Virus record (IMG/VR): IMGVR_UViG_3300017917_003893
Span: 32,001 to 96,000 of that record
Length of the DNA stretch: 64,000 nt
Source of the DNA: a virus
Direction: 5' to 3' (one strand)
Under the pieces are notes generated by a model that was not told where the DNA came from, did not search any database, and saw only the letters and a list, made by a program, of their open reading frames with translations. Each line of letters opens with the position of its first letter. Position 1 is the stretch's first letter. Below, one piece after another: positions 27,800 through 56,734 of this stretch. The position numbers and the translations under genes were made by a program.

Positions 27800-27825
27800 A
27801 AACCTCTCGATTGAGAGGTTTTTTT
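27800..27825. terminator. Intrinsic terminator between convergent genes
   Basis: AAACCTCTC-gatt-GAGAGGTTT plus T run. Confidence 0.75.
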
Positions 27826-28264
27826 ATGATGTCATTTTCGGATAAGTGAAGTAGAATGACTTAACTTGGTTATCTATAATTCTTTGGTTAATATCAATTT
27901 GAACTTTAGATTCTAATAAGTCGTTAATTATTTTACCCCACTCTGTTGTTAAAGTCTTTATTTTAATTTCTAATTCTAAAACATTGTTTTCTTTTAGAAT
28001 GAATTTCATAAATTTTATACTTGCTGATGCTTTTGTCAATACATCAAAATCATTTTCATCTATTACTGTGTTTACATATAATACACCAAATGAGTGGGAT
28101 GATATATCTAAAGTAAATTCTATTTTTTTATCTTCTAAAAGTGAACTTAATTTAATTTCTCTCTTGTATTCCGGCCAATTTTTAAAATTAGATAATATAC
28201 TCTCATATTGATCAAGAGTATTATTATCTAGATTTATATTAAATTTCTTTAATAACTCACTCAT
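27824..28264 (-). CDS. Degenerate prohead-protease paralogue (probably inactive)
   Basis: GVLY..VLTKASASI..KENN..KTLTTEWGK..INQR aligns by eye with GVVY..SLSRASHII..KESN..RLLNTYWGK..VSSR of ORF 30725. Confidence 0.55.
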   Translation of the reverse strand: MSELLKKFNINLDNNTLDQYESILSNFKNWPEYKREIKLSSLLEDKKIEFTLDISSHSFGVLYVNTVIDENDFDVLTKASASIKFMKFILKENNVLELEIKIKTLTTEWGKIINDLLESKVQIDINQRIIDNQVKSFYFTYPKMTS

Positions 28265-28265
28265 T

Positions 28266-30143
28266 TTAGAATAATGTGAAATCTATTTGTTTCTTTTCTA
28301 AATCAACTGACTTAACTACAACTTTAATAGGATCACCTAATCTGATTTTATCACCCATTTCATTAGTTATAGTATAGTTGTTTGTATCTACTAACCATTT
28401 TCCTTCAAGTGACTGGTATCTAATCATACCTTCACACTTACTTTCAATTAATTCAACATACATACCCCAATCAGTTACACCTGAAACAATCCCGTCAAAT
28501 ACTTTCCCAATTTTATCAAGTAAGTATTCAGCTTGTTTATATTTAATTGAATCTCTTTGTGCTTTCGCTGCTACTAATTCTCTTGATGAACACCATTTAG
28601 ATTGGTCTTCAATTTTACTTGGATTTCCTTGTTTACCTTTATTTAAGAAATCAAAAAGAATTCTATGTGTAATTAAATCTGGATATCTACGGATAGGTGA
28701 AGTAAAGTGAGAATAGTGAGTAAAACCTAATCCATAGTGTCCAATATTCTTAATTGTATAAGTTGCTTTAGACATACATCTTGTAACTAATGTTTCAATC
28801 ATATTTTCTTCAGGAGTTCCTTTTATTTCTTTTATTAATTTATTTAATGCTTCTTTTATTTGATTAGCATCATCGTTGATAGTTAACTCGTGTTTGAATG
28901 TGTTACAAATATTTACTAATTCATTTAATTTATCCATGTTTGGTGTATCGTGTACACGATAAACATTTGTCCATCCAGCTTCTGATAAAGTTTTAGCTAC
29001 CGACTTGTTAGCAAGTAACATAAACTCTTCAATTAACTTATTAGCTTCTTTTTGTTCTTTGAAATAAACTCCAATAGGTTTCTTATTATCTTCGGCTAAT
29101 TTGAATCTTACTTCAATACCACCCATTTCAATTGAACCTTCTTTAATTCTTTTCTTGCGAATTTTTTTAGCCAATTGGTCTAATAATCTAATCTCACTTG
29201 AATAATCACCATCGTTACCTTCAATTATTTCTTGAGCTTCTTCATAAGTGAATCTTCTATCCGAATGAATAACTGTTTTGCCTTGCCAAGAATCTAATAT
29301 GTTAGCATCTTTATCTAAAGTAAAGATTACAGAAAATGCTAATCTGTCTTCATTTGGTTTTAATGAGCATATACCATTACTTAATCTTTCTGGTAACATT
29401 GGTACACATCTATCGACTAAGTAGACAGAGGTTGCTCTTTTATAAGCCTCTTTATCTAATTCTGAATCTGGTTTAACATAGTGACCTACATCTGCTATAT
29501 GAACACCAACTTCTATTTTATCTCCTTTTACTTCTATTGAAAGTGCGTCATCAAAATCTCTAGCATCTACTGGGTCAATAGTCAATGTTGTAATACTTCT
29601 CATATCTTTACGAGATGATATTTCTTTTTCACTAATAACTTCAGGAACCAAAAATGATTCATTGATAACTTCTTGTGGAAATTCAACAGGTAAACCATAC
29701 TCAATCATAATTGAGTTCATCTCTGTATTGTTATCTCCAGAGTTACCTAAAATCTTTGTAATTTTTCCTTGAGGTGATTTTGAGTCTTCCCATTTTGTTA
29801 GTTCGACTACAACCTTTTGGTCGTTTTCAGCTTTTAACCCACCTTTGACGTAAAAGTCTACTGGAATTTTATTACTATCCGGAACAACAAATATAGTTTT
29901 TTTACCTATCTGTACTCTACCAACGAACTCTTTTTTAAATCTTGAAATAACTTCAATTACTTTTCCTTCTAATTTTTTTTCAGCTTTAAATATTTCTATT
30001 TTAACTTTATCTAAATGTAAAGAAGTGTGAGTATTTTTTTTATAAATGAATATTTCTTTTTCTTGTACTGTTAGAGATGCGTTACCGTTCGTTGAAAACT
30101 CTATTTGTCCTTCAAACACATCTCCCTCTTTTAATTCTATCAT
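28266..30143 (-). CDS. rnr: Ribonuclease R
   Basis: TIDPVDARDFDDA, IEEFMLLAN, HYGL...HFTSPIRRYPDL..HR, C-terminal S1 domain. Confidence 0.95.
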   Translation of the reverse strand: MIELKEGDVFEGQIEFSTNGNASLTVQEKEIFIYKKNTHTSLHLDKVKIEIFKAEKKLEGKVIEVISRFKKEFVGRVQIGKKTIFVVPDSNKIPVDFYVKGGLKAENDQKVVVELTKWEDSKSPQGKITKILGNSGDNNTEMNSIMIEYGLPVEFPQEVINESFLVPEVISEKEISSRKDMRSITTLTIDPVDARDFDDALSIEVKGDKIEVGVHIADVGHYVKPDSELDKEAYKRATSVYLVDRCVPMLPERLSNGICSLKPNEDRLAFSVIFTLDKDANILDSWQGKTVIHSDRRFTYEEAQEIIEGNDGDYSSEIRLLDQLAKKIRKKRIKEGSIEMGGIEVRFKLAEDNKKPIGVYFKEQKEANKLIEEFMLLANKSVAKTLSEAGWTNVYRVHDTPNMDKLNELVNICNTFKHELTINDDANQIKEALNKLIKEIKGTPEENMIETLVTRCMSKATYTIKNIGHYGLGFTHYSHFTSPIRRYPDLITHRILFDFLNKGKQGNPSKIEDQSKWCSSRELVAAKAQRDSIKYKQAEYLLDKIGKVFDGIVSGVTDWGMYVELIESKCEGMIRYQSLEGKWLVDTNNYTITNEMGDKIRLGDPIKVVVKSVDLEKKQIDFTLF

Positions 30144-30156
30144 ATGAGTATTCTAT

Positions 30157-30552
30157 TTAAGAAATCTCATTTTGTTTATCTCTCTTTGATATATTATCAA
30201 CCCCATACTTCTCTATAAGAGTCTTTTTCATCTTATTTAAGACTTTTTTATTTTGTATTGGGTAGTCAACTCCAAAATTTTTTCTTAAAGTTTGTTTTCT
30301 TTTAGATTCTGAACATTTTCTACAATAGTATTCTCCCCATGGGTTATCATATTTTACATAATTTTTAAAGATAACTTCTTTTTCCACACCACAACTATCA
30401 CATTTACATTTTATTTTATAGTGTGATCCTTTAGACATTAATTCGATAGGTATTTTTACAATCTCTCCTATTGACACGTCATATCCTAAATCATCATAGT
30501 ACTGATAATTTGATTCATTTATTTTAATTTCTATCTCTCTAGTAAGGATCAT
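30157..30552 (-). CDS. Zn-ribbon protein with xxKYGVxN-type repeats
   Basis: CDSC, CRKC; KNFGVDYP and EKYGVDNI repeats; no nuclease motif seen. Confidence 0.55.
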   Translation of the reverse strand: MILTREIEIKINESNYQYYDDLGYDVSIGEIVKIPIELMSKGSHYKIKCKCDSCGVEKEVIFKNYVKYDNPWGEYYCRKCSESKRKQTLRKNFGVDYPIQNKKVLNKMKKTLIEKYGVDNISKRDKQNEIS

Positions 30553-30724
30553 AAAAAACCGCTCAATTTCTTTTATTTATTAATTTTTTCTTTCTTCCTC
30601 ATGGTTTTTATAGAATATAGTTCCCGTTTGAAACATGAGTTGTCTATAAAAAATCCATCTTAAAAAAAAGGCGGTTTTTCATCGAATATATATACTCTAT
30701 ATTTTAAAAAATAAATACATTTAA

Positions 30725-39780: not shown

Positions 39781-40513
39781 TATTATAAAAGATTTCAAAC
39801 AAAGAGGTGATATTATTAAAATTTATGATTGGATGAAAATTAATAAGAATCTAAATAATTTTGATAAGAAACAAGTTTCTATGAAAAATAATTCAGGCAT
39901 TGGTACTGCTTTTAATATAGATGTTACAAGCATTGTTACTAGTACACTTATCAATGAATTAAATCAAGATTTAATTAGAACTATTTTGAAATCAATGTTT
40001 AATACTCAAAATTTTGATTATTTAGATTTAAGACCAGATGGTTCTCTAATGACTGGTAGAGTTCATCTTGAGAGGTTAGTACAAATGATTTATCAAAGCG
40101 GTTATAAAAATGTTATCACAACTGGCATGATAGCTTCTGAACTTATGGATAGTGCTTACTTTTTATCCAATGGGTTTAAAAATGCTAGTATGAGTGCTAC
40201 TTCAACATTTTATAATTCAGGTAGTTTAAATGGTGTTAAAGTTTGGGTTGATCCATATATGAAATTTAACGATGGTAGATTATGTCTGTTCAATGAGGTT
40301 GATATCAACATTGAAGACGTTGACTTAGTTGAATTTATTGACCCAGTTGATGCACAGTCCACATTCAAGATTCAGTATAAATCCGACTTTATTGTAAATG
40401 ACTCTAAATTAATATTTGTAATTGAGAATGAAAACTCCGAGGCATATATTCAATATAAGTCGTTACAAAGAGATATAAAAATAGATAATATTTTAGATGG
40501 CAAATCTTTCTAA
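39773..40513 (+). CDS. Truncated major-capsid-protein paralogue
   Basis: LINELNQ, ITTGMIASELMD, GSLNGVKVWVDPYMKFNDGR align with MCP LVNELSQ, ITNGGLAAALQD, GSIGDISIYVDPYMKYNDNR. Confidence 0.75.
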   Translation: MNNIIKDFKQRGDIIKIYDWMKINKNLNNFDKKQVSMKNNSGIGTAFNIDVTSIVTSTLINELNQDLIRTILKSMFNTQNFDYLDLRPDGSLMTGRVHLERLVQMIYQSGYKNVITTGMIASELMDSAYFLSNGFKNASMSATSTFYNSGSLNGVKVWVDPYMKFNDGRLCLFNEVDINIEDVDLVEFIDPVDAQSTFKIQYKSDFIVNDSKLIFVIENENSEAYIQYKSLQRDIKIDNILDGKSF

Positions 40514-40715
40514 TACATTTCAAATAAATAGTACCTGTGGTTCAAGTGCTTTAACGATTGATTCTGATGGTAATACGGTTGTAAATAAGCTGGTTCTTTT
40601 GGATGAAAAAACAGGAAATAAATGGGAAGTTAAAATATCGCATGGTGAACTAGTGGTTGAGCCTTTAGAATTAGAAGATAAAAGAGAATTTAAATTAAAT
40701 AAAATATTGAAATGA
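40497..40715 (+). CDS. Small hypothetical protein ending REFKLNKILK
   Basis: 72 aa ORF coupled within operon. Confidence 0.6.
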   Translation: MANLSNTFQINSTCGSSALTIDSDGNTVVNKLVLLDEKTGNKWEVKISHGELVVEPLELEDKREFKLNKILK

Positions 40716-41257: not shown

Positions 41258-41261
41258 AAAG

Positions 41262-41872: not shown

Positions 41873-43219
41873 ATGTATAATAAAGACATGAGTAAGTTAA
41901 TAACACTAAATGGTAATAATGACCAAGAATTATTGAGTTCTATATTCGACAATGAAATAGTAGTATTTGAAGATGTACAAGGCTCAAAGATATGGGTTAA
42001 TTGGGATGGTAAAGAGTTTACTATAAAACCTAAATCAATGAATAGCGATCCTATAAATTTAATTGATTTGGCTATGCAAAACTATTATAATCCAGCAATT
42101 ATTTTTTTTAATTCACTTGATGTTAGAGTTAAGTCTTTATTGAATAAAAAATGGTGGTTTTGTTTTGAATATTTTCCTGATAATCAACCAGCTAATATTG
42201 AGTACTCTAGAGTTCCAAAAAATAATTTAGTTTTAATTACAGTTAATAAATCTGGAAAATATGATTTTGGTGTTGATGAACTAGATGAATATGCTAGACT
42301 TTTTGATGTGGATATGTTGCCTATTGTTTTTCAAGGTAAATTGACCGAAAGAATGATAGAGGCAATTAGATATTTTATAAACACAAGTGAAGAGGATTTA
42401 GAATATGTTTTTGGTGAAAAATCATTTGCTTTTTTCTTTTATAAAATATTGAATCCTAGTTCAAAGAATTCATTTTTAATGGAAACTGATGATTTTCAAA
42501 ACAATGTAGAAAAATTAATAGTTAGAACTGCTAAAGGTGATATTTCATTTGAAATATTAAATCCTTTATATAAAAGAATAAGTGATAATAATTCAACAGA
42601 ATTTGTTGAGATATACACTTTAATTCTAGTTAATTTCTTGAATTTCTGTCAATCATTTAACTTAGAAGAAATTAAGTTAAAGGGTGATAAAAGAGATGAG
42701 GTTTATATTTATTTAATGTCTAAGTTATTTAATGTTTATGTATCTGAGGTTAAGCAAGATTTATTAGACTTTGAATTTATAGTTCCTGAATTTTTCGACA
42801 AAGAGAAGTTTAAGATTAATATTGAATTAATACCAAATAAATTAACTAAAGACTATATTAAAGAATCAGATAAATTAGAATATATTTTCAAAGTTATTTT
42901 AGGCTCATTTAATAAAAAAAGAAAGAAGCCAATTGGTGTATTTACAGAAAATACAGTTATTCTTTTCAATGGATTTGTAACTGATATTAATAATTATATT
43001 GATAAATATTTAAATAAATTACACGAAGTTGAGTTAACAAGAGCTGGTCTTTTAGACTTTGGTGATTTCTTTGAAATTCAATATGATACAGACGGTGAAG
43101 GTGAAGTTTATCCAGATGTTTATACTGAATTTGAAAAAGGAGTTCCTTCTGATAAGAAGAAAAAAGGAAAAGGTGGTAAAATGTTACCAGTTGAAGAAAC
43201 GCCTAAATCTCCTAAATAA
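41873..43219 (+). CDS. RNA-ligase-like nucleotidyltransferase fold lacking catalytic Lys
   Basis: FEDVQGS (for EKxDGS), FCFEYF, LPIVFQG, VEKLIVR. Confidence 0.5.
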   Translation: MYNKDMSKLITLNGNNDQELLSSIFDNEIVVFEDVQGSKIWVNWDGKEFTIKPKSMNSDPINLIDLAMQNYYNPAIIFFNSLDVRVKSLLNKKWWFCFEYFPDNQPANIEYSRVPKNNLVLITVNKSGKYDFGVDELDEYARLFDVDMLPIVFQGKLTERMIEAIRYFINTSEEDLEYVFGEKSFAFFFYKILNPSSKNSFLMETDDFQNNVEKLIVRTAKGDISFEILNPLYKRISDNNSTEFVEIYTLILVNFLNFCQSFNLEEIKLKGDKRDEVYIYLMSKLFNVYVSEVKQDLLDFEFIVPEFFDKEKFKINIELIPNKLTKDYIKESDKLEYIFKVILGSFNKKRKKPIGVFTENTVILFNGFVTDINNYIDKYLNKLHEVELTRAGLLDFGDFFEIQYDTDGEGEVYPDVYTEFEKGVPSDKKKKGKGGKMLPVEETPKSPK

Positions 43220-43419
43220 TGAAATCTGTTAATCTTAATATAAAATCTGTCGAGGTAAAAGCAAGTGTAAGACCACTTAGAACTAAGTGGACTCGTGAAA
43301 TGGTCAATGATATACAAAGCCTTAGTGATATGGATTTAAGTTCTTTTGAGAGATATTTTACAAAAGAGTTAAGAAGAGAAAATAGGAAAAATTCTATAAA
43401 TAAAATCTTTAAAAAATAA
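43219..43419 (+). CDS. Mini-protein resembling a T4-type MCP segment
   Basis: IKSVEVKASVRPLRTKWTREMVNDI resembles gp23-family IEK..V.AKSR.LKA.[YW]T.E..QD. Confidence 0.55.
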   Translation: MKSVNLNIKSVEVKASVRPLRTKWTREMVNDIQSLSDMDLSSFERYFTKELRRENRKNSINKIFKK

Positions 43420-44713: not shown

Positions 44714-44866
44714 ATGAAAATGTTCTATTTAACCGTTAACGGAAACAAGAAAGATGTTATATCTAAGGTCATGACAGAGACATTAGAACAAGCAGTTGTT
44801 TACTTCTCGGAAATTAAAAATCTGTCAATTGATGCTCTACTAAAAATCTATACCATTACTGAATAA
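44714..44866 (+). CDS. Small hypothetical protein, 50 aa, not in ORF track
   Basis: ATG 44714 to TAA 44866 (MKMFYLTVNG...KIYTITE), preceded by AAATATATA. Confidence 0.6.
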   Translation: MKMFYLTVNGNKKDVISKVMTETLEQAVVYFSEIKNLSIDALLKIYTITE

Positions 44867-44894
44867 GTGTTGTATATTTTTAATATATACAATT

Positions 44895-45434
44895 ATGATT
44901 GGATTAGAACATCAAAATGCAACCTTCATCTTACTATCTTCAAAAAGACTTGAAGATATGATTTCTATACTTTATGCTAAAGAATATACAGTTGTGCCAA
45001 TAAAGGGTTACTACAGAGGTCAGTTTGAAGACTCTGTTATGGCTTATGGTATGGTTGATAATGATACTTTAAGAAAAGATGTACTTTTTCTACTTAATCA
45101 TTTTGATGAAGAGTGTGCTATAATAAAATATCAAGGAGAATCTAATGCTAAAAAGATATTTAAAGATGGTTCTGAAAAACCACTTGGTATAGTTATGTAC
45201 AATACAGATGCTGACAATATGTCTTATCTATACAATGGTACTTCATTCTCATTCGTAGAGTCTAAGAGATATTGGAAGCCAACTAAGAAAGAAGATTTTA
45301 GAGTAGGTATGTTAGTTGAATACTTCAACAATAATAAATGGTATGAAAAACTTGTTGAGAATCCTAACGATGAATATGAAAAACTTTATAAGTTACTTAT
45401 AAAGTATGATAAAGTTAGAGTTGCTTCTAAATAA
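44895..45434 (+). CDS. Hypothetical protein
   Basis: TAATATATA at 44881-44889. Confidence 0.65.
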   Translation: MIGLEHQNATFILLSSKRLEDMISILYAKEYTVVPIKGYYRGQFEDSVMAYGMVDNDTLRKDVLFLLNHFDEECAIIKYQGESNAKKIFKDGSEKPLGIVMYNTDADNMSYLYNGTSFSFVESKRYWKPTKKEDFRVGMLVEYFNNNKWYEKLVENPNDEYEKLYKLLIKYDKVRVASK

Positions 45435-46203
45435 TTTCAAACCAATTTATTATTTTATGCCAATTTGGTGTTTCTTTTAAGAAGTATCTCATATCATTTG
45501 GACAATTTATTACATTCAATCCGTTTTCAGTTTTTTGAACATTTCTCATCATAATAATCTTATTTGATTTAATATAAGGAGAAGTTATAACATTTATTCC
45601 GTTAATATTTCCAGTTACAACACCGTTATTACTAGACACAATCATTCCATTAGATAATAGAAGATATTTATAAGCATCTAAACCAACTATAATTGTATTA
45701 GCTGGTCCGGTTCTACCTGATGATGCTATTAAGCTACTAACCATCATTATTCTAGTTATCACTCTTCTCGATAAAGCTATTTCGTTTTCAGAATCTGTTA
45801 AGTTAGAATCTTTTTGATAAATAACATTTAGATTTTGAGGAACACCCATTGGGTTTGATGTTAGTGTCTCTAATGTTTTCATAATATCTGTATAGATATC
45901 TGTTAAATCTAAATAGGTTTTACCTTGAACATTAATAGAATTTATTTTAGGAGAAATAACTGACATATAACCTTCATTATCCAAAGGGTTTGAAAATGTT
46001 TCTCTGTTCTTGAACTCTTCTACTTTACCATCAACGATAGCGTCAATAGCAAGATCTCTATTCTTTCTTTTTAATTCTCTTTGATATTCTTCGTTTGGTT
46101 CTTCAATCCAATCCATATATGTCATTACAACTTGAGGTAAAGAAGGTTTGGTAGATTCTACATAATTACAGATAGCAATTAAGTCATTATTAGAAATTAT
46201 CAT
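45427..46203 (-). CDS. Degenerate major-capsid-protein paralogue
   Basis: RRVITRIMMVSSLIASSGRTGPA vs MCP RKLITKIAHASNFIATEGRVGPA; VISPKINS vs VIGPKISS; start chosen at MIISNND. Confidence 0.75.
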   Translation of the reverse strand: MIISNNDLIAICNYVESTKPSLPQVVMTYMDWIEEPNEEYQRELKRKNRDLAIDAIVDGKVEEFKNRETFSNPLDNEGYMSVISPKINSINVQGKTYLDLTDIYTDIMKTLETLTSNPMGVPQNLNVIYQKDSNLTDSENEIALSRRVITRIMMVSSLIASSGRTGPANTIIVGLDAYKYLLLSNGMIVSSNNGVVTGNINGINVITSPYIKSNKIIMMRNVQKTENGLNVINCPNDMRYFLKETPNWHKIINWFEII

Positions 46204-46951
46204 ATTTATTCTTCCATCCAATTTTTGGCATTTGGTTTAATATAACCTTCTGTAATTGTTCTTTATTCATAGTGGATGTTTTTTGTAACAATTGTAGATT
46301 TCTTTGATACCACTTCATGTCAGGTTGAACTCTTTCGTGGTATAAATGAAAGCATCTTGCTTGTAGTTCGGTCCAAGTTAAAAAGTTTTTAACTTTCATA
46401 GTTTGAAAATCATCTTCTCCACCCCAACCAATGAAGTCTTCATTCCAACCACCAATCTTTTGAATAGCTTCTCTTCTAAACATTGCTATACCACCAGAGA
46501 TGTTAATTTTTTGATTATCTGTTTCTCCTCTACCTGGTCTATTTATACTAATCATTTGTTCTAATTGTAGATTACTTTCTTGTTGGGTTAAATCTACAAC
46601 TGAATGATACGGACTCACCATATCATAACTTTGTAAAGCGTTTAAACCAGCTATGAATTGATTAGGTTCCATAATTAAATCAGAATCACCAAAAACAATA
46701 ATATTTGAGTTTGCCCATTTCATTGCTACATTAAATGCCCAGGATCTGTTGTAGGGCATATCTGATTTTGTAAATATGTGTTTGGCTTTTAAGTTTAGGT
46801 GAGATATTTTAGAGTGAGTATCTTGTTCAATTAGTAGCACTTCAACTCCTCCAAATCCGTTAATCCAATCGAGAACTCTTCTTAAATTTTGTAATCTTTC
46901 TAGATTGTGTCTATAACCTATTACATAGGTGAATGAATAGTTTGAACTCAT
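46190..46951 (-). CDS. Glycosyltransferase (GT2/GT7-like)
   Basis: YNRSWAFN, DSD, GGWNEDFIGWGGEDDF. Confidence 0.88.
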   Translation of the reverse strand: MSSNYSFTYVIGYRHNLERLQNLRRVLDWINGFGGVEVLLIEQDTHSKISHLNLKAKHIFTKSDMPYNRSWAFNVAMKWANSNIIVFGDSDLIMEPNQFIAGLNALQSYDMVSPYHSVVDLTQQESNLQLEQMISINRPGRGETDNQKINISGGIAMFRREAIQKIGGWNEDFIGWGGEDDFQTMKVKNFLTWTELQARCFHLYHERVQPDMKWYQRNLQLLQKTSTMNKEQLQKVILNQMPKIGWKNKYDNF

Positions 46952-46995
46952 TAATGAATATTATTTTTTATTTATATTAAATATAATGAGTTTGT

Positions 46996-47610: not shown

Positions 47611-47981
47611 AGTATTTTTTTAATTTCCGTTGAACTTACATTTTCAGTTCTTTTTAAGTAGATAACTTTACAGTTTAAGTCATCAAATTTGCCTTTCCAA
47701 TCATCCCCAATTACAAATATGTCAATTTTGTAATTCTCTATGTCTGTATTTTTTTGTTGCCAGTTTTCTTCCGGTATTATCTCATCAATATATTTGATTG
47801 ATTCTAACCACTCTTTTCTTTTATCATAGTTGAACTTACTTTCTTTACCTTTTATTCTATTAAAGTTATCAGTTGATAGTCCAACAATAAGATAATCACC
47901 TAGTTCTTTAGATCTTCTCAAAAGTTCTAAATGACCATAATGAAATGTGTCAAAAGTTCCATACGTTATTACTTTAGTCAT
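47607..47981 (-). CDS. tagD: Glycerol-3-phosphate cytidylyltransferase
   Basis: VITYGTFDTFHYGH, GDDWKGKFD, RTENVSST. Confidence 0.92.
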   Translation of the reverse strand: MTKVITYGTFDTFHYGHLELLRRSKELGDYLIVGLSTDNFNRIKGKESKFNYDKRKEWLESIKYIDEIIPEENWQQKNTDIENYKIDIFVIGDDWKGKFDDLNCKVIYLKRTENVSSTEIKKIL

Positions 47982-51123: not shown

Positions 51124-51160
51124 AGTTTATATATAAAGAAACTTTGTTTTTGTCACAAAA

Positions 51161-51562
51161 ATGAGAAAAAAGATAGGAAGAACTGAAATTATATCATTAC
51201 CTGATTTTGGAATATTCGGGTTATCAGCAAAAGTTGACACCGGGGCCTATGGTGTAGCTTTACATGTTGATACTATAAAAATAGATAATGATAAGCTTTA
51301 CTTTACTATTGATAATAAAGAGTTTATATATGACAAGTTTAAAATGGTGTCCGTTAAAAGTTCTTTTGGTAAAGTTCAAAAAAGATTTTCTATTATGACT
51401 AAAATATTAATCGGTGACAAGATATATAAATTTTATGTATCTTTGACCAATAGAAAGAACATGAGATATCCTATTCTAATAGGTAGAAGATTTTTGTATA
51501 AATTTGACTATTTAGTAGATGTTAAGAAAAAGAATATAAATGATACAGTTAAAAAGATGTAA
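51161..51562 (+). CDS. Retropepsin-like aspartic protease (RimK-associated family)
   Basis: IGRTE, AKVDTGA, LTNRKNMRYPILIGRRFL. Confidence 0.85.
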   Translation: MRKKIGRTEIISLPDFGIFGLSAKVDTGAYGVALHVDTIKIDNDKLYFTIDNKEFIYDKFKMVSVKSSFGKVQKRFSIMTKILIGDKIYKFYVSLTNRKNMRYPILIGRRFLYKFDYLVDVKKKNINDTVKKM

Positions 51563-52079
51563 TTATATTACGGGTGATCCAAATGAATTAGGATTTGCTG
51601 TTTCTGATATCGTTAAGTTTCTTGAAACTGATGGTAGAAATGCTCTATTGTTTACTCCACCAAGAGCTACAACTGAAGATAAAAAAGGAGTTTCTACATC
51701 TATAAAATATATTTTTAGTAATCAATTCACTTTTGATAATTTTAATCAGTTTTCAGAGATAATTGCCAATAGGTCTAATTTATTTAGAGTTGATTTATTA
51801 GTCTTTGATTTTTATCACCTTTCTCCTTGGCAAATTTCTGATTATAAGAAATTAATAGATGAATTAAATATAGACCATATTATAATAGCCAAAGAATATC
51901 ATTACAAAACTTCTGATGATGTTAATGATTTTCGTGTTAGAAGAGAATACAAAGACCTAAATAAAAGTGAAACTCACATAACTGATAATATAAATAAGTG
52001 GACTTCTACACTTAAATCTTTATCTGTATCTTATATAAGAGATAAAAAAATCGACAATATATTTGGTAGTGATGAATAG
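51540..52079 (+). CDS. Hypothetical, possibly degenerate P-loop fold, ending RDKKIDNIF
   Basis: NYITGD start, VDLLVFD Walker-B-like strand, no intact Walker A. Confidence 0.5.
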   Translation: MIQLKRCNYITGDPNELGFAVSDIVKFLETDGRNALLFTPPRATTEDKKGVSTSIKYIFSNQFTFDNFNQFSEIIANRSNLFRVDLLVFDFYHLSPWQISDYKKLIDELNIDHIIIAKEYHYKTSDDVNDFRVRREYKDLNKSETHITDNINKWTSTLKSLSVSYIRDKKIDNIFGSDE

Positions 52080-52093
52080 TATTACTATATTTG
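52062..52093 (+). promoter_or_regulatory. Bacteroidota-type promoter
   Basis: TTTG 52062-52065, 20 nt spacer, TATATTTG 52086-52093. Confidence 0.7.
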
Positions 52094-52121
52094 CTTCATT
52101 AGCAATATAATATAAATATTA

Positions 52122-53222
52122 ATGAGAATTAGAAGAAAGTTTCTACAACTTACACGGTATACATATCCTTATGGTACCGAATCATTCCTTAAATCATACT
52201 TACCTGAAGGTATTAAAAAAGACCAATATGGTAACTATTACTATGTTATTGGTGATAAACCAACAACAATGTTTACCTGTCACTTAGATACGGCTTGTGG
52301 TAAACAAGATAAGGTTAAACACGTTATTAATAATAACATAATTAAGACAGATGGTAAAACTATACTTGGTGCTGATGATAAGGCAGGTATGGTTGTTTTG
52401 CTTTATATGATTGAAAATAAAATACCTGGACTATATTATTTCTTTATTGGTGAAGAAGTTGGTTGTATAGGTTCTGGTAATTTATCATCTACTTGGGCTG
52501 ATACTGAATTTAGTTATTATGTATCAAAAGTTGTTTCATTTGACAGAAGAAGTACTTGTTCTGTTATCACTCATCAATGGTATGGTCGTTGTTGCTCTAA
52601 TGAATTTGCTGAAGAATTGTCAAGTAGACTAAATGGTGCTGGTTTTAATCTTAAATTAAAGCCAGATGATACTGGTGTTCTAACAGATTCTGCTCAATTT
52701 ATGGATATTGTTCCAGAGTGTACAAATATATCAGTTGGTTACAATTATGAACACACAACATCTGAATATCAAGATATTGATTATTTAAGTAGACTATGTA
52801 AGTCAGTGTGTTTAATTGACTGGGAAACACTTCCTGTTGAAAGAGATCCCTATGAAGAATCTATTTTTAGTGATTCACCAGGTTGGGATGATGATATTAA
52901 TCACTCAAATGATTCTGAATTTGTAGAAGATTTCTATTCTTATTTTTCAGTAGATGGTGAGACTAAAAAGATGTATATTTCCAAGGATGTGATTACTAAA
53001 GAAATTGAATTAATTACTGATTGGCTCAAATCACAAGATGGATATAGTGATGTTTCAACTATTAACTGGAATGGAAATACTCTTTATGTCGATAGTGAGT
53101 CCGGTGGTTATAATTTTATAGGTAGTCGAACTGATATTATGGAGTTTATTACTGAATTATGTTCAGTTTCCAATTCAAAAGTAACTGATAAAATTAAGAC
53201 CAAGAAGAATATGGTTTTTTAA
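52122..53222 (+). CDS. M28/M20-family metallopeptidase, paralogue of 35127
   Basis: CHLDT, GADDKAG, GEEVG, SFDRR, LTDS, YEHT. Confidence 0.85.
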   Translation: MRIRRKFLQLTRYTYPYGTESFLKSYLPEGIKKDQYGNYYYVIGDKPTTMFTCHLDTACGKQDKVKHVINNNIIKTDGKTILGADDKAGMVVLLYMIENKIPGLYYFFIGEEVGCIGSGNLSSTWADTEFSYYVSKVVSFDRRSTCSVITHQWYGRCCSNEFAEELSSRLNGAGFNLKLKPDDTGVLTDSAQFMDIVPECTNISVGYNYEHTTSEYQDIDYLSRLCKSVCLIDWETLPVERDPYEESIFSDSPGWDDDINHSNDSEFVEDFYSYFSVDGETKKMYISKDVITKEIELITDWLKSQDGYSDVSTINWNGNTLYVDSESGGYNFIGSRTDIMEFITELCSVSNSKVTDKIKTKKNMVF

Positions 53223-53383
53223 GACAATCTTGGTTTTTTATATGAGTCCTGAGAAACTATCTCTAGCATTTGTCTAGTTGATAGTTCTTTTGGATTCCAT
53301 CCTTTTTTTCTTGAATATTGATGGATGAATTTTTCTCTAAGCAGAGAAACTTCTTCTTTTGTGAGTCTTATTTTATTGTTCAT
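53219..53383 (-). CDS. Small hypothetical protein, 54 aa, not in ORF track
   Basis: MNNKIRLTKEE...KKPRLS; ATGA overlap with upstream ORF. Confidence 0.6.
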   Translation of the reverse strand: MNNKIRLTKEEVSLLREKFIHQYSRKKGWNPKELSTRQMLEIVSQDSYKKPRLS

Positions 53384-53808
53384 AGTATAAATAAATAGAT
53401 AAATATTTGAAGTAGTAAACCAACTGACATTCCAATTGTTCTTCTTTTATATGTAGTTAATAGAGAAAATGGTGGAAATGTTTTTGATTCATCTGACCAT
53501 CTTTTAGGATATAAGTTACTATCAAGTTTATTTCTTGTGTAGTAATAAGTTCCATTGTGAAAGAAAGGAAACATTATAACCATACAAAACAAACTTAAAA
53601 GTGAGTAGGTCCCTAATGTGTAAAAAAGAAATCCGCTGGTTAGCAGTAAAACAAGTAATCTTTGTAAATTAAATATTCTATTTAAGTTAAAATCACAAAC
53701 TCTTTTACTTTTATTTTCATAGTTCCAGTAAAAACCTTCTCTAATACCTTCAGTTAGTGAGTATCCTATCCAGATAATATTTGTTATTAATAATGTTAAT
53801 AGAATCAT
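53380..53808 (-). CDS. Hypothetical membrane protein
   Basis: Three to four hydrophobic segments. Confidence 0.6.
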   Translation of the reverse strand: MILLTLLITNIIWIGYSLTEGIREGFYWNYENKSKRVCDFNLNRIFNLQRLLVLLLTSGFLFYTLGTYSLLSLFCMVIMFPFFHNGTYYYTRNKLDSNLYPKRWSDESKTFPPFSLLTTYKRRTIGMSVGLLLQIFIYLFIL

Positions 53809-53823
53809 TGTTTTTCGCTATTT

Positions 53824-53855
53824 TTTGTATATATTAATTTTTTATAGTATCTTTG
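53824..53855 (+). promoter_or_regulatory. Bacteroidota-type promoter
   Basis: TTTG 53824-53827, 20 nt spacer, TATCTTTG 53848-53855. Confidence 0.7.
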
Positions 53856-53859
53856 TTCT

Positions 53860-54333
53860 ATGTTAGAAATGAAAGGTATATTAGAATTTGACCCAGTTAA
53901 CGTAACTAGGAAGCACTTAGCACAGTCTTCTTGGAAGAGAACTGCTATGGTTCGTTTTGATTGTGACCTTTGGGCATACTACGCTTGGTTTATTGAAAGA
54001 CGATTCAACTTAAAGTTAAATAAACCTTTAAGAGGAACTCACTTGACTGTCATCAATGATAGATTTGAAAGTGATGAGCTTTACGCACAAGCCCGTCAAT
54101 TATTTCACGGTAAAGAAATTACTGTAAAATATGATCCTACTCTTATTCGTGCTAATAATAAAGGTCACTGGTGGATAAATGCGGATAGTGATGATGCTAG
54201 AAATATCAGAAGTGTTATTGGATTAGATCCTAATCCTTACTTTGGCTACCACATCACTATTGGTTTGGCTACTCACTTACAATTAGAACACTCTAAATAC
54301 ATCTTAGACCAATGTATAAGATTCAATCTTTAA
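53860..54333 (+). CDS. 2H phosphoesterase family protein
   Basis: Two HxT motifs: GTHLTV and YHITI. Confidence 0.7.
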   Translation: MLEMKGILEFDPVNVTRKHLAQSSWKRTAMVRFDCDLWAYYAWFIERRFNLKLNKPLRGTHLTVINDRFESDELYAQARQLFHGKEITVKYDPTLIRANNKGHWWINADSDDARNIRSVIGLDPNPYFGYHITIGLATHLQLEHSKYILDQCIRFNL

Positions 54334-54803
54334 TAGACCATATTGAGAAAGTATATGGATTTGAAATTGTCCCTTGTTCAATACCAAGGGGCAATTTTCA
54401 ATATTTTAAAAGATATATCTACCTATTTATACTTCATAAAGTAAGTGAAAAGTTATTTTACTTTTTAAGAGATAAAGTCTCACCTATTAAATATTTAGAT
54501 GAAAGACCGGATAAAGAACTTTGGTTTCGTAAAAGAAACTCAGAGGGTAGAGTATCTATTGAAGTTGAAATAAGACCAGTTCCTGTTGAAGCTTGTATTT
54601 ATTTAAGTCATGATTCTGGTTTATTTAAGACTATGGATGAAAACTATAAAGTTAAAATATATTGTCAACTTAGTGATGTTGAACATATATCATTTCCATT
54701 AAATCACATCAACGGTAATGAACAGATTGATTATTACTTTTCTAAAATTAATGAACTTAAAGAAGAGTTGAGAAATTATAAATTAAATAATATTTTAAAG
54801 TGA
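54312..54803 (+). CDS. Hypothetical protein ending RNYKLNNILK
   Basis: 163 aa ORF. Confidence 0.55.
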   Translation: MYKIQSLIDHIEKVYGFEIVPCSIPRGNFQYFKRYIYLFILHKVSEKLFYFLRDKVSPIKYLDERPDKELWFRKRNSEGRVSIEVEIRPVPVEACIYLSHDSGLFKTMDENYKVKIYCQLSDVEHISFPLNHINGNEQIDYYFSKINELKEELRNYKLNNILK

Positions 54804-54986
54804 TTTATTTTTCTTAAACTTAAATAGTTTAAATTTTCTTCTTTTCTTCTTCTTTTCTTCTTTCTTTGTAACTGATTTACTATAAAGACTGTCTATACTT
54901 GAGGTTATTTTTTTATCTATAACAATGTTTTCTTTTTCACATGAAGTAAGCAATAAAGTAAGTAGTATTATTATAAAAAATCTCAT
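54795..54986 (-). CDS. Small putative lipoprotein with basic tail
   Basis: Hydrophobic leader and LTSC lipobox. Confidence 0.55.
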   Translation of the reverse strand: MRFFIIILLTLLLTSCEKENIVIDKKITSSIDSLYSKSVTKKEEKKKKRRKFKLFKFKKNKSL

Positions 54987-55054
54987 AATTCTTATATTTA
55001 ATTTAGTGGTAAAGGTTCTTAAACTAGATTATATATTAGACATATAATGATTAT

Positions 55055-55405
55055 ATGGATGATTTTTTTGATAGCTTTAAGGGTAAACCTAAATACGACC
55101 ATAAAGTGAGAGTAGTTCACTTTAAAAAAGAACCATATGACATTTACATTGGTCGTCTTCCGAATGGAAAATATAATAAGTGGGCTTATCCAAAAGAGTT
55201 AAGAGAAAGTTTTCCAGAAGGCACACCAAGAAAAGTTATTGTTGATGCTTATGAAGAATATCTTACTAATAATGAAGAATTGATGAATTCACTTTGTGAG
55301 TTAAAAGATAAAGTTCTTGGTTGTTGGTGTAAAAATCTAGGTGGTGGTGGAAAGTCATGTCACGGTGATATTTTAGTTAAGTGGGTTAAGAAAACTTGTA
55401 ATTAA
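55055..55405 (+). CDS. DUF4326 family protein
   Basis: VVH..YDIYIGR...LKDKVLGCWC...CHGDIL. Confidence 0.85.
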   Translation: MDDFFDSFKGKPKYDHKVRVVHFKKEPYDIYIGRLPNGKYNKWAYPKELRESFPEGTPRKVIVDAYEEYLTNNEELMNSLCELKDKVLGCWCKNLGGGGKSCHGDILVKWVKKTCN

Positions 55406-55435
55406 TTTTTTATATAACCTACATAATTTAATAAT

Positions 55436-56221
55436 ATGCCAGAACTTGCAGAAATAAAAATAATGTCAGATTACATCAACGAAAATTGTAAAAATAAAAC
55501 TTTTACAAAAGCATATCACGTTGAAAAAGGCAACAATCCTGTTGACTTTAATTTAATTGAAAACTTTAATGTTGAAGCCGAATCCAACGGTAAAGAACTC
55601 ATAGTCAAAATGTATCATGATGATACATGTATTAATCTATCAGTTTTTATGGGTATGTCTGGTAATTGGTTATTTACTCCAACTGAAACTTGGTCAGAAA
55701 GAAAATTCACAAGATTTAGATTAGATACAACTGATGGCAATTCACTACTTCTTTATGGTCTTTATATGGGTCCTAAATATAGAGTAGGTGGATTTACAGG
55801 AGTTAAAAGAGGCGTAGATCCTACAAAAGATTTTGAAGCATTTAAGAATACTGTTTTAGATAATCTAGATAAGAAGATATTTGATAAACCTATCTGTGAG
55901 GCACTATTAGACCAAAAGTATTTTAATGGAATTGGCAACTATCTTAGAAGTACTATTCTTTATTATTTAGATGTTAATCCATTTGAAACCGCTAGAACAG
56001 TCATTAAATCAAATACACAAGTTTTAGATATGTGTAGAGATATTCCTATGAAAGCATATGAACTAAACGGTGGTCAACTACAAGACTGGAAAAATCCATT
56101 TGATACTGATTATGAAGAATTTCAAAAATGGGTTTTTTATCAAAAAGGAATTTCTTGTAAAGATAAAACAGGTAGAACCTTTTGGTATAATGAAAAATGG
56201 AAAGAATATTGTCCTTACTAA
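55436..56221 (+). CDS. nei: Fpg/Nei DNA glycosylase, NEIL1-like (zincless)
   Basis: MPE start, GKEL, GMSG, H2TH ICEALLDQKYFNGIGNYLR, GRTFWY. Confidence 0.88.
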   Translation: MPELAEIKIMSDYINENCKNKTFTKAYHVEKGNNPVDFNLIENFNVEAESNGKELIVKMYHDDTCINLSVFMGMSGNWLFTPTETWSERKFTRFRLDTTDGNSLLLYGLYMGPKYRVGGFTGVKRGVDPTKDFEAFKNTVLDNLDKKIFDKPICEALLDQKYFNGIGNYLRSTILYYLDVNPFETARTVIKSNTQVLDMCRDIPMKAYELNGGQLQDWKNPFDTDYEEFQKWVFYQKGISCKDKTGRTFWYNEKWKEYCPY

Positions 56222-56251
56222 ACCATATTTAATTTATTTATATAATGTATA

Positions 56252-56734
56252 GTGTTTGATTTAAATTTTAATACTATACATGGTGATGATAAAACTGGTA
56301 GAACTAGATTTCTACTAGAGTTATCGTCTATTTTAAAATCATATGGTTTTAAAATATTCTTTTTAGGATGTACAAGTGAATTTGAAAACGCAAAAAGAAG
56401 TGGTGATTTATCTTCTTTTGATGACTTTAGAATAATATCAACAAGTGATGATTTTAATAATCTAAAAATAATTGAAGTTATAAATGAAATAACTGATACA
56501 AAAAGTTATGATTATCTAATAGTAGATGATATTGATTATTTATCAGATAACTGTATAAATTCAATAATTAAAACAAAAGTTAAAAAAGTTATTACTTGTT
56601 TAAGTGATAATAAAAAAAGATTACCAGAAAGTTCAACATTTTATAATATCACTGATATTAAAGATATGACTAAGATTAATGATTATATTAAAACTTTAGT
56701 CAGAGACCAAAAAATTAATTCTATACTTAAATGA
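56252..56734 (+). CDS. Degenerate P-loop ATPase-like protein ending RDQKINSILK
   Basis: GDDKTGRT Walker-A variant; YLIVDDID. Confidence 0.55.
   Translation: MFDLNFNTIHGDDKTGRTRFLLELSSILKSYGFKIFFLGCTSEFENAKRSGDLSSFDDFRIISTSDDFNNLKIIEVINEITDTKSYDYLIVDDIDYLSDNCINSIIKTKVKKVITCLSDNKKRLPESSTFYNITDIKDMTKINDYIKTLVRDQKINSILK

What the first reader, a model, noticed from the sequence alone, without database searches (positions are those of the whole stretch)
27824..56734. Family of degenerate copies of core phage proteins sharing an R-[DEN]-x-K-[IL]-x-x-[IL]-[LF] tag: candidate decoy/adaptor system
Seen: eight dispersed small ORFs carry the same short motif or a close variant: 27824 (REIKLSSLL), 39773 (RDIKIDNIL), 40497 (REFKLNKIL), 43219 (RKNSINKIF), 45427 (RDLAIDAIV), 51540 (RDKKIDNIF), 54312 (RNYKLNNIL), 56252 (RDQKINSIL). 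In six it is at the C-terminus. By-eye alignment makes their bodies broken relatives of essential proteins: three MCP-like, one protease-like, two P-loop-like. I did not see the tag in the intact MCP, protease, portal or terminase. Established: some bacterial immune sensors recognise conserved phage structural proteins (CapRel binds an MCP; Avs bind terminase/portal). Inference: modular bait plus a common docking helix, either soaking up host sensors and routing them to a shared partner such as a protease, or poisoning assembly of competing phages. I do not know of a described system like this.
Basis: partly seen in the sequence, partly recalled or inferred. Interest (0 to 1): 0.9.

Follow-up and report, generated by a model that had tools for sequence, protein, structure and literature searches.

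The report
Shared C-terminal address tag, huge phage
About one protein in seven of this roughly 600-kb-class uncultured phage, nearly all of them small, fast-evolving and not made late in infection, ends in the same nine-residue helix (R-D-x-K-I/L-N/D-x-I/L-L), which behaves like an address label read by one partner that is still unidentified; the phage's own Clp protease is the best lead.

Summary
All eight strings are where stated, and six lie within 5 residues of a C-terminus. In the 143-kb contig, 14 of 175 ORFs carry the tag in their last 16 residues against 0.09 expected. In the complete relative LR756502 it is 153 of 1004 against 2.6 expected.

- **Level of selection:** it acts on the peptide. 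Arg codons follow genome usage, and orthologues at 23-58% identity keep the tag.
- **Who carries it:** small, unrelated, lineage-specific proteins. It excludes the N-terminal T4-like capsid-targeting tag, and tagged genes rarely sit behind the late promoter TAATATATA.
- **Bodies:** B, D and E are MCP-like; B folds as a compact HK97 protein. A is weakly protease-like and H weakly P-loop-like. These are a handful among more than 150 unrelated bodies, so "decoys of core proteins" is not the general rule.
- **Reader:** not identified.
  - All three tag-bearing complete genomes encode a ClpC-like ATPase with a ClpP-docking VGF loop plus two true ClpP. Five of six tag-less relatives do not; Lak-A1 has Clp but no tag.
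  - Sliding-clamp docking is unlikely, because PolB and the gp55-like sigma end differently.

Sister lineages carry other shared C-terminal tags.

The parts
39773..40513 (+). B: 246-aa compact HK97-fold (mini-MCP) protein with C-terminal tag RDIKIDNIL (40469-40495)
   Evidence: BLASTP against the window MCP gives E=4e-10. AlphaFold pLDDT 86.8, with a C-terminal helix at 223-241. Foldseek matches T4 gp23/gp24 and other HK97 capsids at prob 1.0. 18 aligned orthologues keep the tag; R233 and I237 are invariant.
40497..40715 (+). C: 72-aa small beta protein with C-terminal tag REFKLNKIL (40683-40709)
   Evidence: 16 aligned orthologues keep the tag and R63 is invariant. AlphaFold: beta core at pLDDT 85-91, then helix 62-71 at pLDDT about 51. 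No family match.
43219..43419 (+). D: 66-aa fragment matching the strand and spine-helix region of gp23, ending in a variant tag RKNSINKIF (43384-43410)
   Evidence: Pfam Gp23 E=1.2e-5, 25.4 bits against a 24.4-bit cut-off; phrog_138 major head protein. Orthologues end in ..RKKSINKIF.
51540..52079 (+). F: 179-aa protein of unknown family with tag RDKKIDNIF (52038-52064)
   Evidence: The LR756502 orthologue (45% identity) ends ..RDKKIDGII. P-loop likeness not supported.
54312..54803 (+). G: 163-aa protein of unknown family with tag RNYKLNNIL (54771-54797)
   Evidence: The LR756502 orthologue (48% identity) ends ..RDYKLKKLF.
56252..56734 (+). H: 160-aa protein with degenerate Walker A/B-like motifs and tag RDQKINSIL (56702-56728); its stop overlaps the start of thymidylate synthase
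   Evidence: Sub-threshold AAA_24 and Sak4 matches. The LR756502 orthologue ends ..RELKINNVL. ThyA lies at 56731-57564.
27824..28264 (-). A: 146-aa protein with the motif used internally (REIKLSSLL, residues 35-43; 28136-28162) ahead of a weakly prohead-protease-like body
   Evidence: In 15 aligned sequences (the window's A plus 14 orthologues) W30, R35, I37, L39 and L43 are invariant. BLASTP against the protease N-domain gives E=6e-4.
45427..46221 (-). E: MCP-like body preceded by a degenerate, internal copy of a B-type tail (RDLAIDAIV, 46033-46059); a likely fusion relic rather than a working C-terminal tag
   Evidence: E against the MCP gives E=3e-7. E residues 39-66 align to B residues 217-244 at E=3e-4.
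32950..34623 (+). Intact gp23-like major capsid protein, untagged; reference for the MCP-like bodies
   Evidence: Pfam Gp23 E=8.6e-29. Late promoter motif upstream.
30725..32869 (+). Prohead protease fused to a scaffold-like region of 13-residue repeats, untagged
   Evidence: phrog_207 E=7.7e-33; repeats visible in the sequence.

Best explanation
The motif is a lineage-specific C-terminal address tag. It is a short amphipathic helix, hydrophobic-R-[D/E/N]-x-K-[I/L]-[N/D/S]-x-[I/L]-[L/F/G], followed by 0-7 residues.

**Shown:**
- It is appended to roughly 10-15% of the proteome of this clade of huge T4-like (Mahaphage-type) phages.
- Its bearers are small, unrelated, rapidly evolving proteins encoded in tightly packed operons.
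- Those operons mostly lack the late promoter.
- The tag is under purifying selection as a peptide.
- It is kept off virion-targeted (N-tagged) proteins and almost entirely off large proteins.

**Inferred (about 0.75):** one shared partner reads the tag and so handles all these proteins as one class.

**Most likely reader (about 0.3, a lead and not a finding):** the phage's own ATP-dependent protease, a ClpC-like unfoldase with a ClpP-docking VGF loop plus two ClpP paralogues. The tag would act either as a degron that clears early/middle proteins, or as the tether of SspB-style adaptors that bring bound targets to the protease.
For: **Enrichment.**
- Own contig: 14 of 175 ORFs against 0.09 expected.
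- LR756502: 153 of 1004 against 2.6 expected. LR756504: 64 of 957 against 1.4, with a variant that mostly ends ..I-x-x-L-L-COOH.

**Peptide-level selection.**
- Codon usage for the tag's Arg matches the genome.
- Positions the search pattern left free still show strong preferences: K at position 3 in 63 of 95, N/D/S at position 5 in 71 of 95.

**Conservation.** Orthologues at 23-58% identity keep the tag.

**Unrelated, fast-evolving bodies.**
- 95 tagged proteins fall into 87 BLAST clusters.
- Only 2 of 153 tagged proteins have a homologue in three other huge phages, against 139 of 641 small untagged proteins (p=3e-12).

**Exclusive of the N-terminal capsid-targeting-like tag.** 2 of 127 against 119 of 772 (p=1e-6).

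**Timing.** The late motif heads the operon of 79% of N-tagged genes, 23% of C-tagged genes and 38% of other genes.

**Structure.** The tag is a terminal helix in the models of B and C; in C it has low confidence (pLDDT about 51) beyond a confident beta core.

**Clp lead.**
- LR756502, LR745206 and LR756504 (tag-bearing) each have two ClpP with E 1e-55 to 1e-78. In LR756502 and LR756504, the two that were scanned, both paralogues keep the catalytic Ser and His motifs.
- Each also has a ClpC-like ATPase with a VGF loop.
- LR756501 (no tag, equally distant) has no ClpP. Its ATPase keeps Clp_N but lacks the VGF loop and the M-domain.
- LR756511, LR756500, PTm1 and PAU have neither the tag nor a true Clp system.
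Against: **The Clp co-occurrence is weak evidence.**
- It rests on nine genomes that are not phylogenetically independent (3/0/1/5, Fisher 0.048).
- Lak-A1 has ClpP and a Clp ATPase but no RD tag and no obvious shared tail in 400 kb.
- 65 of 1004 LR756502 proteins share the 'present in LR756504, absent in LR756501' profile.

**Points against a pore-read C-degron.**
- In the A family the motif is internal yet invariant.
- The ClpC-like N-terminus is not conserved between LR756502 and LR756504, so no common docking site is evident.

**Timing is indirect.** The promoter-based timing is an inference from motifs, not from expression data.
Confidence: 0.6

Rival explanations
1. Capsid or shell cargo-loading peptide. 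The tag would dock on the inner face of an HK97-fold shell (the prohead MCP or the mini-MCP B), as encapsulin cargo peptides do, so that tagged proteins are packaged and injected.
For: HK97-fold proteins are at hand: the MCP and B. The tag is a short C-terminal helix. One variant ends ..L-G-I, which from my memory recalls encapsulin targeting peptides. A, which carries the motif, sits next to the portal gene.
Against: Tagged genes are depleted of the late promoter (23% against 79% for N-tagged genes). The tag and the T4-CTS-like N-tag are mutually exclusive, and the N-tag already marks about 13% of genes as probable head cargo. B itself carries the tag. Tag-less relatives have homologous MCPs.
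Confidence: 0.12
2. Sliding-clamp (PIP-box or T4 gp45-type) binding tail. Tagged proteins would ride on the phage clamp.
For: The hydrophobic-x-x-hydrophobic-hydrophobic spacing near a C-terminus resembles T4 gp43's ..SLDFLFG. A gp44-like clamp loader and a gp55-like late sigma are encoded.
Against: The expected clamp clients in the same genomes end differently: PolB ..VVMDIFGGSGF and gp55-like ..NDGxG[LFM][HY]x[LFI]. The loader, the sigma and the split PolB are present in tag-bearing and tag-less genomes alike. No recognised replication enzyme carries the tag. No clamp gene was found by PF02916, PF09116, PF00712, phrog_223 or T4 gp45, so the hub itself is unidentified.
Confidence: 0.07
3. Decoy system. 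Degenerate copies of core proteins would act as bait for host sensors or competing phages, joined to a common helix.
For: B, D and a 61-aa LR756502 protein are MCP-derived and carry the tag. H is weakly P-loop-like and tagged. E (MCP-like) and A (weakly protease-like) carry the motif internally.
Against: These are a few among more than 150 tagged proteins with unrelated bodies. E's copy of the motif is an internal relic. The B-like protein of LR756501 has no tag. Nothing links any body to a host sensor.
Confidence: 0.06
4. Membrane-targeting amphipathic helix of the MinD/FtsA type.
For: The tag is a C-terminal amphipathic helix with basic residues (R0, K3, often K9) flanking a small hydrophobic face.
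Against: The conserved acidic or amide residues at positions 1 and 5 and the invariant Arg point to specific recognition rather than lipid binding. There are only three hydrophobic positions. The tag sequence changes as a unit between lineages (R-D in LR756502, R-K in LR756504, none in LR756501).
Confidence: 0.05
5. Artefact of composition or of a nucleotide-level signal, such as an A-rich translation-initiation region or a promoter for the next gene.
For: Genes are tightly packed (median gap -1). Some tag positions are enriched in A-ending codons: K as AAA 81% against 64%, and Ile at position 7 as ATA 77% against 49%.
Against: Shuffles give 0.01-0.09 expected copies. In the six-frame scan 6 of 8 strict-motif hits are in the reading frame of a called ORF. 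The distance from tag to next start codon ranges from 1 to about 260 nt. All Arg codon families are used in genome proportions.
Confidence: 0.02

Closest known systems
C-terminal degrons and adaptor tethers of Clp proteases (ssrA tag; MuA C-terminal signal; the ClpX-binding tail of SspB) - compared from my own knowledge of these systems
   Same: A short peptide at or near the C-terminus is shared by unrelated proteins and read by one AAA+ machine. A cognate unfoldase with a ClpP-docking loop and ClpP genes are encoded in every tag-bearing complete genome examined. The LR756504 variant mostly ends in a non-polar ..LL-COOH.
   Different: The sequence differs: an invariant Arg followed by Asp/Glu/Asn. 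The tag is genome-encoded on 10-15% of ORFs. It tolerates up to 7 trailing residues and is used internally in the A family. No degradation or binding has been shown. Lak-A1 has a Clp system without the tag.
Clamp-binding tails (PIP box; T4 gp43, gp33 and gp55 C-termini binding gp45)
   Same: Extreme C-terminal position, hydrophobic-x-x-hydrophobic-hydrophobic spacing, and many clients for one hub.
   Different: The phage's own PolB and gp55-like proteins do not carry this tag, and no clamp was found.
T4 capsid-targeting sequence and encapsulin cargo-loading peptides
   Same: A short terminal peptide that sorts unrelated proteins.
   Different: This genome already has a T4-CTS-like N-terminal tag on late genes. 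The C-tag is exclusive of it and lies on non-late genes.
Other lineage-specific shared C-terminal tags noted by this scan in phages (e1-4772764 in T4-like Vibrio phages; e1-831089 in viruses probably of DPANN archaea; e1-5405666 in freshwater phages)
   Same: Many unrelated small proteins of one virus end in one peptide. The tag is uniform within a lineage and differs between lineages.
   Different: The tag sequence differs. Here there are also data on promoter class, exclusivity with an N-terminal tag, and co-occurrence with a Clp system. Those earlier notes were not re-tested here.

Membership tests
Clp-type C-terminal degron or adaptor tether | Short shared peptide at or near a free C-terminus of unrelated proteins | tested here: met
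   0-7 residues follow the motif, most often 1. 95 tagged proteins fall into 87 clusters. However, the A family uses the motif internally.
Clp-type C-terminal degron or adaptor tether | A cognate unfoldase able to dock ClpP, and an active ClpP, are available | tested here: met
   ClpC-like ATPase with a VGF loop in the three tag-bearing relatives, and two ClpP each; the catalytic Ser/His motifs were scanned and found in LR756502 and LR756504. Neither gene lies on the window's own 143-kb contig (about 25% of a genome).
Clp-type C-terminal degron or adaptor tether | The tag binds the unfoldase or an adaptor and causes degradation or delivery | not testable with these tools
Clp-type C-terminal degron or adaptor tether | Tag and protease co-occur across genomes | tested here: inconclusive
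   Tag+/Clp+ 3, tag+/Clp- 0, tag-/Clp+ 1 (Lak-A1), tag-/Clp- 5. The genomes are not phylogenetically independent.
PIP-box / T4 gp45 clamp-binding tail | Carried by the replicative polymerase and, in T4-like phages, by the late sigma | tested here: not met
   PolB C-half ends ..VVMDIFGGSGF and gp55-like ends ..GSNDG[QM]GLHSL. Neither fits the tag.
PIP-box / T4 gp45 clamp-binding tail | A sliding clamp is encoded | tested here: inconclusive
   A loader was found. No clamp was found by four families and T4 gp45.
Capsid-targeting or encapsulin-type cargo peptide | Bearers are co-expressed with, and packaged into, the shell | tested here: not met
   Only 23% of C-tagged genes lie in operons headed by the late motif, against 79% of N-tagged genes. 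Packaging itself is not testable here.
MinD/FtsA-type membrane-targeting sequence | Amphipathic terminal helix conserved in pattern rather than in specific polar residues | tested here: not met
   Arg is invariant. D/E/N fill 91 of 95 at position 1, and N/D/S 71 of 95 at position 5.
HK97-fold capsid protein (for body B) | HK97 fold and sequence relation to gp23 | tested here: met
   Foldseek prob 1.0 to T4 gp23/gp24, TM 0.55-0.58. BLASTP against the window MCP gives E=4e-10. Pfam Gp23 itself is below its cut-off (15.5 bits).
P-loop NTPase (for bodies F and H) | Significant profile match and an intact Walker A motif | tested here: not met
   H: AAA_24 at 17 bits against a 27-bit cut-off, with Walker A-like GDDKTGRT (Arg in place of Lys). 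F: no match. F against H is not significant.

The most novel reading that the evidence does not exclude
The tag would be the common tether of a phage-encoded targeted-degradation system. More than 150 rapidly evolving early proteins would each bind a different host (or phage) target through their variable body and dock through the shared helix on the phage's own ClpC-like/ClpP1P2 protease. The mini-MCP B would then deliver capsid-sensing host defence proteins to destruction.
Probability: 0.1. Interest if true: 0.92.

Novelty: new variant of a known kind. Interest (0 to 1): 0.7.

Why it matters
If one partner reads this tail, about a seventh of the otherwise unannotatable genes of the largest known phages fall into one functional class that can be read from sequence alone. 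Together with the N-terminal capsid tag, roughly a quarter of the proteome would be sorted by two labels.

This gives a direct experimental handle.

Sister lineages carry different shared tails: DPYGEE.W in LR756501, NADDFGFFD in LR756500, and an R-K variant in LR756504. Terminal address tags may therefore be a general organising principle of very large phage genomes. I found no description of such a tag in the papers I searched.

Tried and rejected
**Nucleotide-level element (promoter, initiation region).** Rejected on frame consistency, shuffles and codon usage.

**Hyper-diverged paralogue family.** Rejected: 87 clusters for 95 bodies, and different folds for B and C.

**Search for a sliding clamp.** Nothing found with PF02916, PF09116, PF00712, phrog_223, T4 gp45 by the genome search, or local phmmer. 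PDB sequence searches with two neighbours of the clamp loader also gave nothing useful.

**tmRNA with a tag-like peptide.** None in LR756502 or in the own contig.

**Flanks of 80 IMG/VR ClpC loci.** Few tags there; uninformative, because tagged genes cluster elsewhere in the genome.

**Pfam on the ten largest tagged proteins.** No family above threshold.

**Phyletic profile 'present in LR756504, absent in LR756501'.** It left 65 candidates. Of the ten I annotated, eight are metabolic or nucleic-acid enzymes and two have no family, so the profile does not single out a reader.

**My early idea that E's and D's motifs are simply the end of the gp23 spine helix.** Dropped for E, whose motif aligns with B's C-terminal tail. 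Still possible for D.

**Literature.** Searches found phage ClpP/ClpS/ClpA/ClpX noted in jumbo phages (PMC7824862) but no tag.

Full report
**Setting.** The window is bases 32001-96000 of a 143,336-bp IMG/VR viral contig with 29.5% G+C, estimated at about 25% of a genome.
- It encodes a T4-like portal (26063-27781), a prohead protease fused to a scaffold-like repeat region (30725-32869) and a gp23-like MCP (32950-34623).
- It also encodes a large terminase (10847-12982), a gp44-like clamp loader (18463-19425, minus strand) and a gp55-like late sigma (21954-22319).
- The nearest complete genomes are the 635-735-kb uncultured phages LR756502, LR745206, LR756504 and LR756501. From memory these belong to the 'Mahaphage' group of Al-Shayeb et al. 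2020 (PMC7162821 is in the library; I did not re-read it for these accessions).

**Observation.** All eight motif strings exist in the named ORFs.
- Six lie 1-5 residues from a stop codon; A and E are internal.
- In the six-frame scan, 6 of the 8 strict-motif hits are in the frame of a called ORF and 5 of those are at its C-terminus.
- On the 175 ORFs of the contig, the strict motif falls in the last 16 residues 7 times against 0.01 in residue shuffles. A relaxed form does so 14 times against 0.09.
Seven or eight more tagged ORFs lie beyond the window.
- I fetched the complete relative LR756502 in full. There, 81 ORFs match the first pattern.
- About 45 more carry a second variant, R-[D/N]-x-K-L-x-x-[L/I]-G-[I/L]-COOH. 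With a pattern covering both, 153 of 1004 ORFs are tagged against 2.6 expected from the internal rate.

**Shape of the tag.** The logo is hydrophobic(-1), R(0), D/E/N(1), x, K(3), I/L(4), N/D/S(5), x, I/L(7), L/F(8), then 0-7 residues, most often one. On a helical wheel R0, I4, I7 and L8 share one face; this is my inference.

**Peptide, not DNA.**
- Arg at position 0 uses AGA, AGG, CGT, CGA and CGC in genome proportions (p=0.23).
- There is only a mild excess of A-ending codons, as expected next to downstream start codons.
- The distance from tag to next start varies from 1 to about 260 nt.

**Selection.**
- Orthologues in LR756502 at 35-58% identity keep the tag.
- Among 80 IMG/VR relatives found with the MCP, all but one of the 24 full-length B-family hits, at 23-47% identity, end in the tag. 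All 20 C-family hits carry it, two of them in weakened form (..VI..II).
- In the B alignment only four columns are invariant, and two of them are R233 and I237 of the tag. In C, R63 is invariant.

**Who carries it.**
- The bodies are unrelated: 95 tagged proteins fall into 87 BLAST clusters.
- The ten largest have no significant Pfam family, only two sub-threshold matches.
- Median length is 117-120 residues. Only 2 of 156 LR756502 proteins over 300 aa, and 0 of 164 in LR756504, are tagged.
- Tagged proteins are almost never conserved between lineages: 2 of 153 have a homologue in LR756501, LR756504 or LR756511, against 139 of 641 small untagged proteins (p=3e-12).
- No protein with a recognised core, replication or metabolic function carries the tag.

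**Relation to the N-terminal tag, and timing.**
I re-derived it from the ORF list (M-[K/R]-x-[L/I]-[K/R]-x-[F/Y]-[N/E]..).
- The two tags are mutually exclusive: 2 of 127 C-tagged proteins against 119 of 772 small untagged ones (p=1e-6).
- The portal, protease, MCP, terminase and N-tagged genes share an upstream motif, (T)TAATATATA(C), about 25-35 nt before the start codon. I read this as the late promoter.
- That motif heads the operon of 79% of N-tagged genes, 23% of C-tagged genes and 38% of other genes. It occurs in 3.4% of random 80-mers (p=4.5e-24 and 1.5e-4).
- C-tagged genes sit in long, tightly packed operons with a median gap of -1. In the window they lie among nucleotide-metabolism and DNA-modification genes: thymidylate synthase (by family match), a probable Fpg/Nei-type glycosylase (from its N-terminal sequence only), DNA methyltransferases and NADAR.
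- The tag therefore marks mostly non-late, probably non-virion proteins. This is inferred from motifs, not from expression data.

- **B** aligns to the MCP from the spine helix to the C-terminus (E=4e-10). It folds with pLDDT 86.8 as a compact HK97 protein matching T4 gp23/gp24 and other capsids. It is a mini-MCP rather than a broken fragment, with a 19-residue C-terminal helix whose second half is the tag.
- **E** is MCP-like (E=3e-7). Its N-proximal motif aligns with B's C-terminal tail (E=3e-4). E therefore looks like a fusion relic with a degenerate internal tag.
- **D** is a 66-residue piece of the gp23 strand and spine-helix region, just over Pfam's cut-off.
- **A** is weakly similar to the N-domain of the prohead protease (E=6e-4). 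In A the motif is internal, yet W30, R35, I37, L39 and L43 are invariant in 15 aligned sequences. The helix therefore also works away from a free C-terminus.
- **H** has only sub-threshold P-loop matches, and F has none.
- **C** is a small beta domain (pLDDT 85-91) followed by a low-confidence terminal helix.

They are a small minority of the tagged set.

**Distribution between lineages.** Whole-genome counts:

| Genome | Tagged / ORFs | Note |
|---|---|---|
| LR756502 | 153 / 1004 | R-D type |
| LR756504 | 64 / 957 | variant K-x-E-x-R-K-x-[I/K]-I-[E/N]-[E/D]-L-L, ending at the last L in 40 of 64 |
| LR756501 | 0 / 1056 | |
| LR756511 | 1 / 1111 | chance level |

- LR745206 has the tag in the 50 kb sampled.
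- LR756502, LR756501 and LR756504 are about equidistant: median identity 35-37% over roughly 190 shared proteins each. LR756511 is remote.
- LR756501 instead has D-P-Y-G-E-E-x-W in 39 tails, and in 54 further proteins internally. In the 50 kb read by eye it sat on proteins that also carry the N-tag.
- LR756500 has ..N-A-D-D-F-G-F-F-D on about 12 genes.
- Shared terminal tags therefore recur in this group, but the sequence is lineage-specific. That argues for a co-evolving, phage-encoded reader rather than a conserved host hub (inference).

- The spacing of the tag recalls PIP boxes and T4 gp43's ..SLDFLFG.
- However, the split PolB's C-terminal half ends ..VVMDIFGGSGF, and the gp55-like sigma ends ..N-[D/E]-G-x-G-[L/F/M]-[H/Y]-x-[L/F/I] in three lineages.
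- The loader, the sigma and PolB occur in tag-bearing and tag-less genomes alike.
- No clamp gene could be found.
- I rate this explanation unlikely.

- LR756502, LR745206 and LR756504 each encode two strong ClpP (E 1e-55 to 1e-78) and a third weak ClpP-like protein in LR756502 and LR756504. Both strong ClpP of LR756502 and LR756504, the two genomes scanned, keep the Ser and His motifs.
- Each also encodes a ClpC-like double-AAA ATPase. It has the VGF ClpP-docking tripeptide and lacks a Clp_N domain; in LR756502 and LR745206 it also has a UVR-type middle domain.
- LR756501 has no ClpP, and its ATPase has Clp_N but no VGF and no middle domain.
- LR756511, LR756500, Tenacibaculum phage PTm1 and Sphingomonas phage PAU lack a true Clp system and lack the tag.
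- Against the link: Prevotella phage Lak-A1 has ClpP (8e-72) and a Clp ATPase, but no RD tag and no obvious shared tail in 400 kb read with TAG=Q.
- The table is 3/0/1/5 (Fisher 0.048 by hand), and the genomes are not independent.
- 65 LR756502 proteins share the crude profile 'present in LR756504, absent in LR756501'. Of the ten I annotated, eight are metabolic or nucleic-acid enzymes.
- Iyer et al. 2021 (PMC7824862) note patchy ClpP, ClpS, ClpA and ClpX in jumbo phages and suggest use against the host. They describe no tag.

**Verdict.**
- **Shown:** a real, peptide-level, strongly selected, lineage-specific C-terminal tag on 10-15% of the proteome. Its bearers are small, fast-evolving, mostly non-late proteins, and it excludes the capsid-type N-tag.
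- **Inferred (about 0.75):** it is an address or docking helix read by one partner.
- **Lead (about 0.3):**
it survives only for a few bodies and as the boldest version of the adaptor reading.
- **Elsewhere in this scan:** analogous shared C-terminal tags were noted in other phage lineages (e1-4772764, e1-831089, e1-5405666), also without a reader. I did not re-test those.

Noticed in passing
window upstream of 26063, 30725, 32950, 10847, 34703, 35127, 25488, 58121, 14896, 15575: A shared motif, (T)TAATATATA(C), lies about 25-35 nt before the start of the portal, protease, MCP, terminase and N-tagged genes. It is probably the late promoter read with the gp55-like sigma. It heads 79% of N-tagged operons against 3.4% of random 80-mers.
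   Followed up: partly
LR756501.1 (L105 and whole record): The 735-kb relative has no RD tag. It has a different shared motif, D-P-Y-G-E-E-x-W-[D/E], in 39 protein tails and internally in 54 further proteins. In the 50 kb read by eye it sat on proteins that also carry the N-terminal capsid-targeting-like tag.
   Followed up: partly
LR756500.1 (L308-L327): The 462-kb relative has yet another shared C-terminal tail, ..N-A-D-D-F-G-F-F-D, on about a dozen of 560 ORFs.
   Followed up: no
window 30725-32869: The prohead protease is fused to a long run of 13-residue repeats (consensus near Y-S-E-Y-L-A-E-N-L-D-K-N-I, about 12 copies) and then an acidic Cys-containing stretch. This is presumably a built-in scaffold.
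   Followed up: no
window 59056-60582; LR756502 120483-121907 and 253853-255391: The family-B DNA polymerase is split into N- and C-terminal halves encoded more than 130 kb apart in LR756502. Only the N-half lies on this contig.
   Followed up: partly
window 35127-36533 and 52122-53222: Two paralogous peptidases (phrog_4191; the second resembles peptidase T/tripeptidase of the M20 type). One carries the N-terminal capsid-type tag and the other does not.
   Followed up: partly
LR756502 440544-442667 and IMG/VR loci L111-L186: The phage ClpC-like ATPase lacks the Clp_N domain. In LR756502-like phages it starts with a conserved short segment ending in an Asp/Glu run (..[K/R]-A-[S/A]-x-x-D-D-D-D..). 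The LR756504 version has no such extension. More than 570 relatives exist in IMG/VR.
   Followed up: partly
window 21954-22319 and orthologues in LR756502, LR756501 and LR756504: The gp55-like late sigma keeps a conserved C-terminal ..N-[D/E]-G-x-G-[L/F/M]-[H/Y]-x-[L/F/I]-COOH. This is a candidate clamp-binding tail for a clamp that no profile found.
   Followed up: no
window 28266-30143 (minus strand) and 30157-30552 (minus strand): A full-length RNase II/R homologue (RNB, CSD2 and S1 domains) lies downstream of an HNH-type homing-endonuclease-like gene and is apparently co-transcribed with protein A.
   Followed up: no
LR756502 373-405 kb and 420-436 kb (L008, L009): Arrays of about 44 tRNA genes, and no tmRNA. 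The own contig has a single tRNA-Cys (L023 3184-3256).
   Followed up: no
LR756502 277261-277446: Another tagged mini-protein (61 aa) whose only homologue in LR756504 is that phage's MCP (43% over 35 residues). MCP-derived fragments therefore recur among tagged proteins.
   Followed up: no
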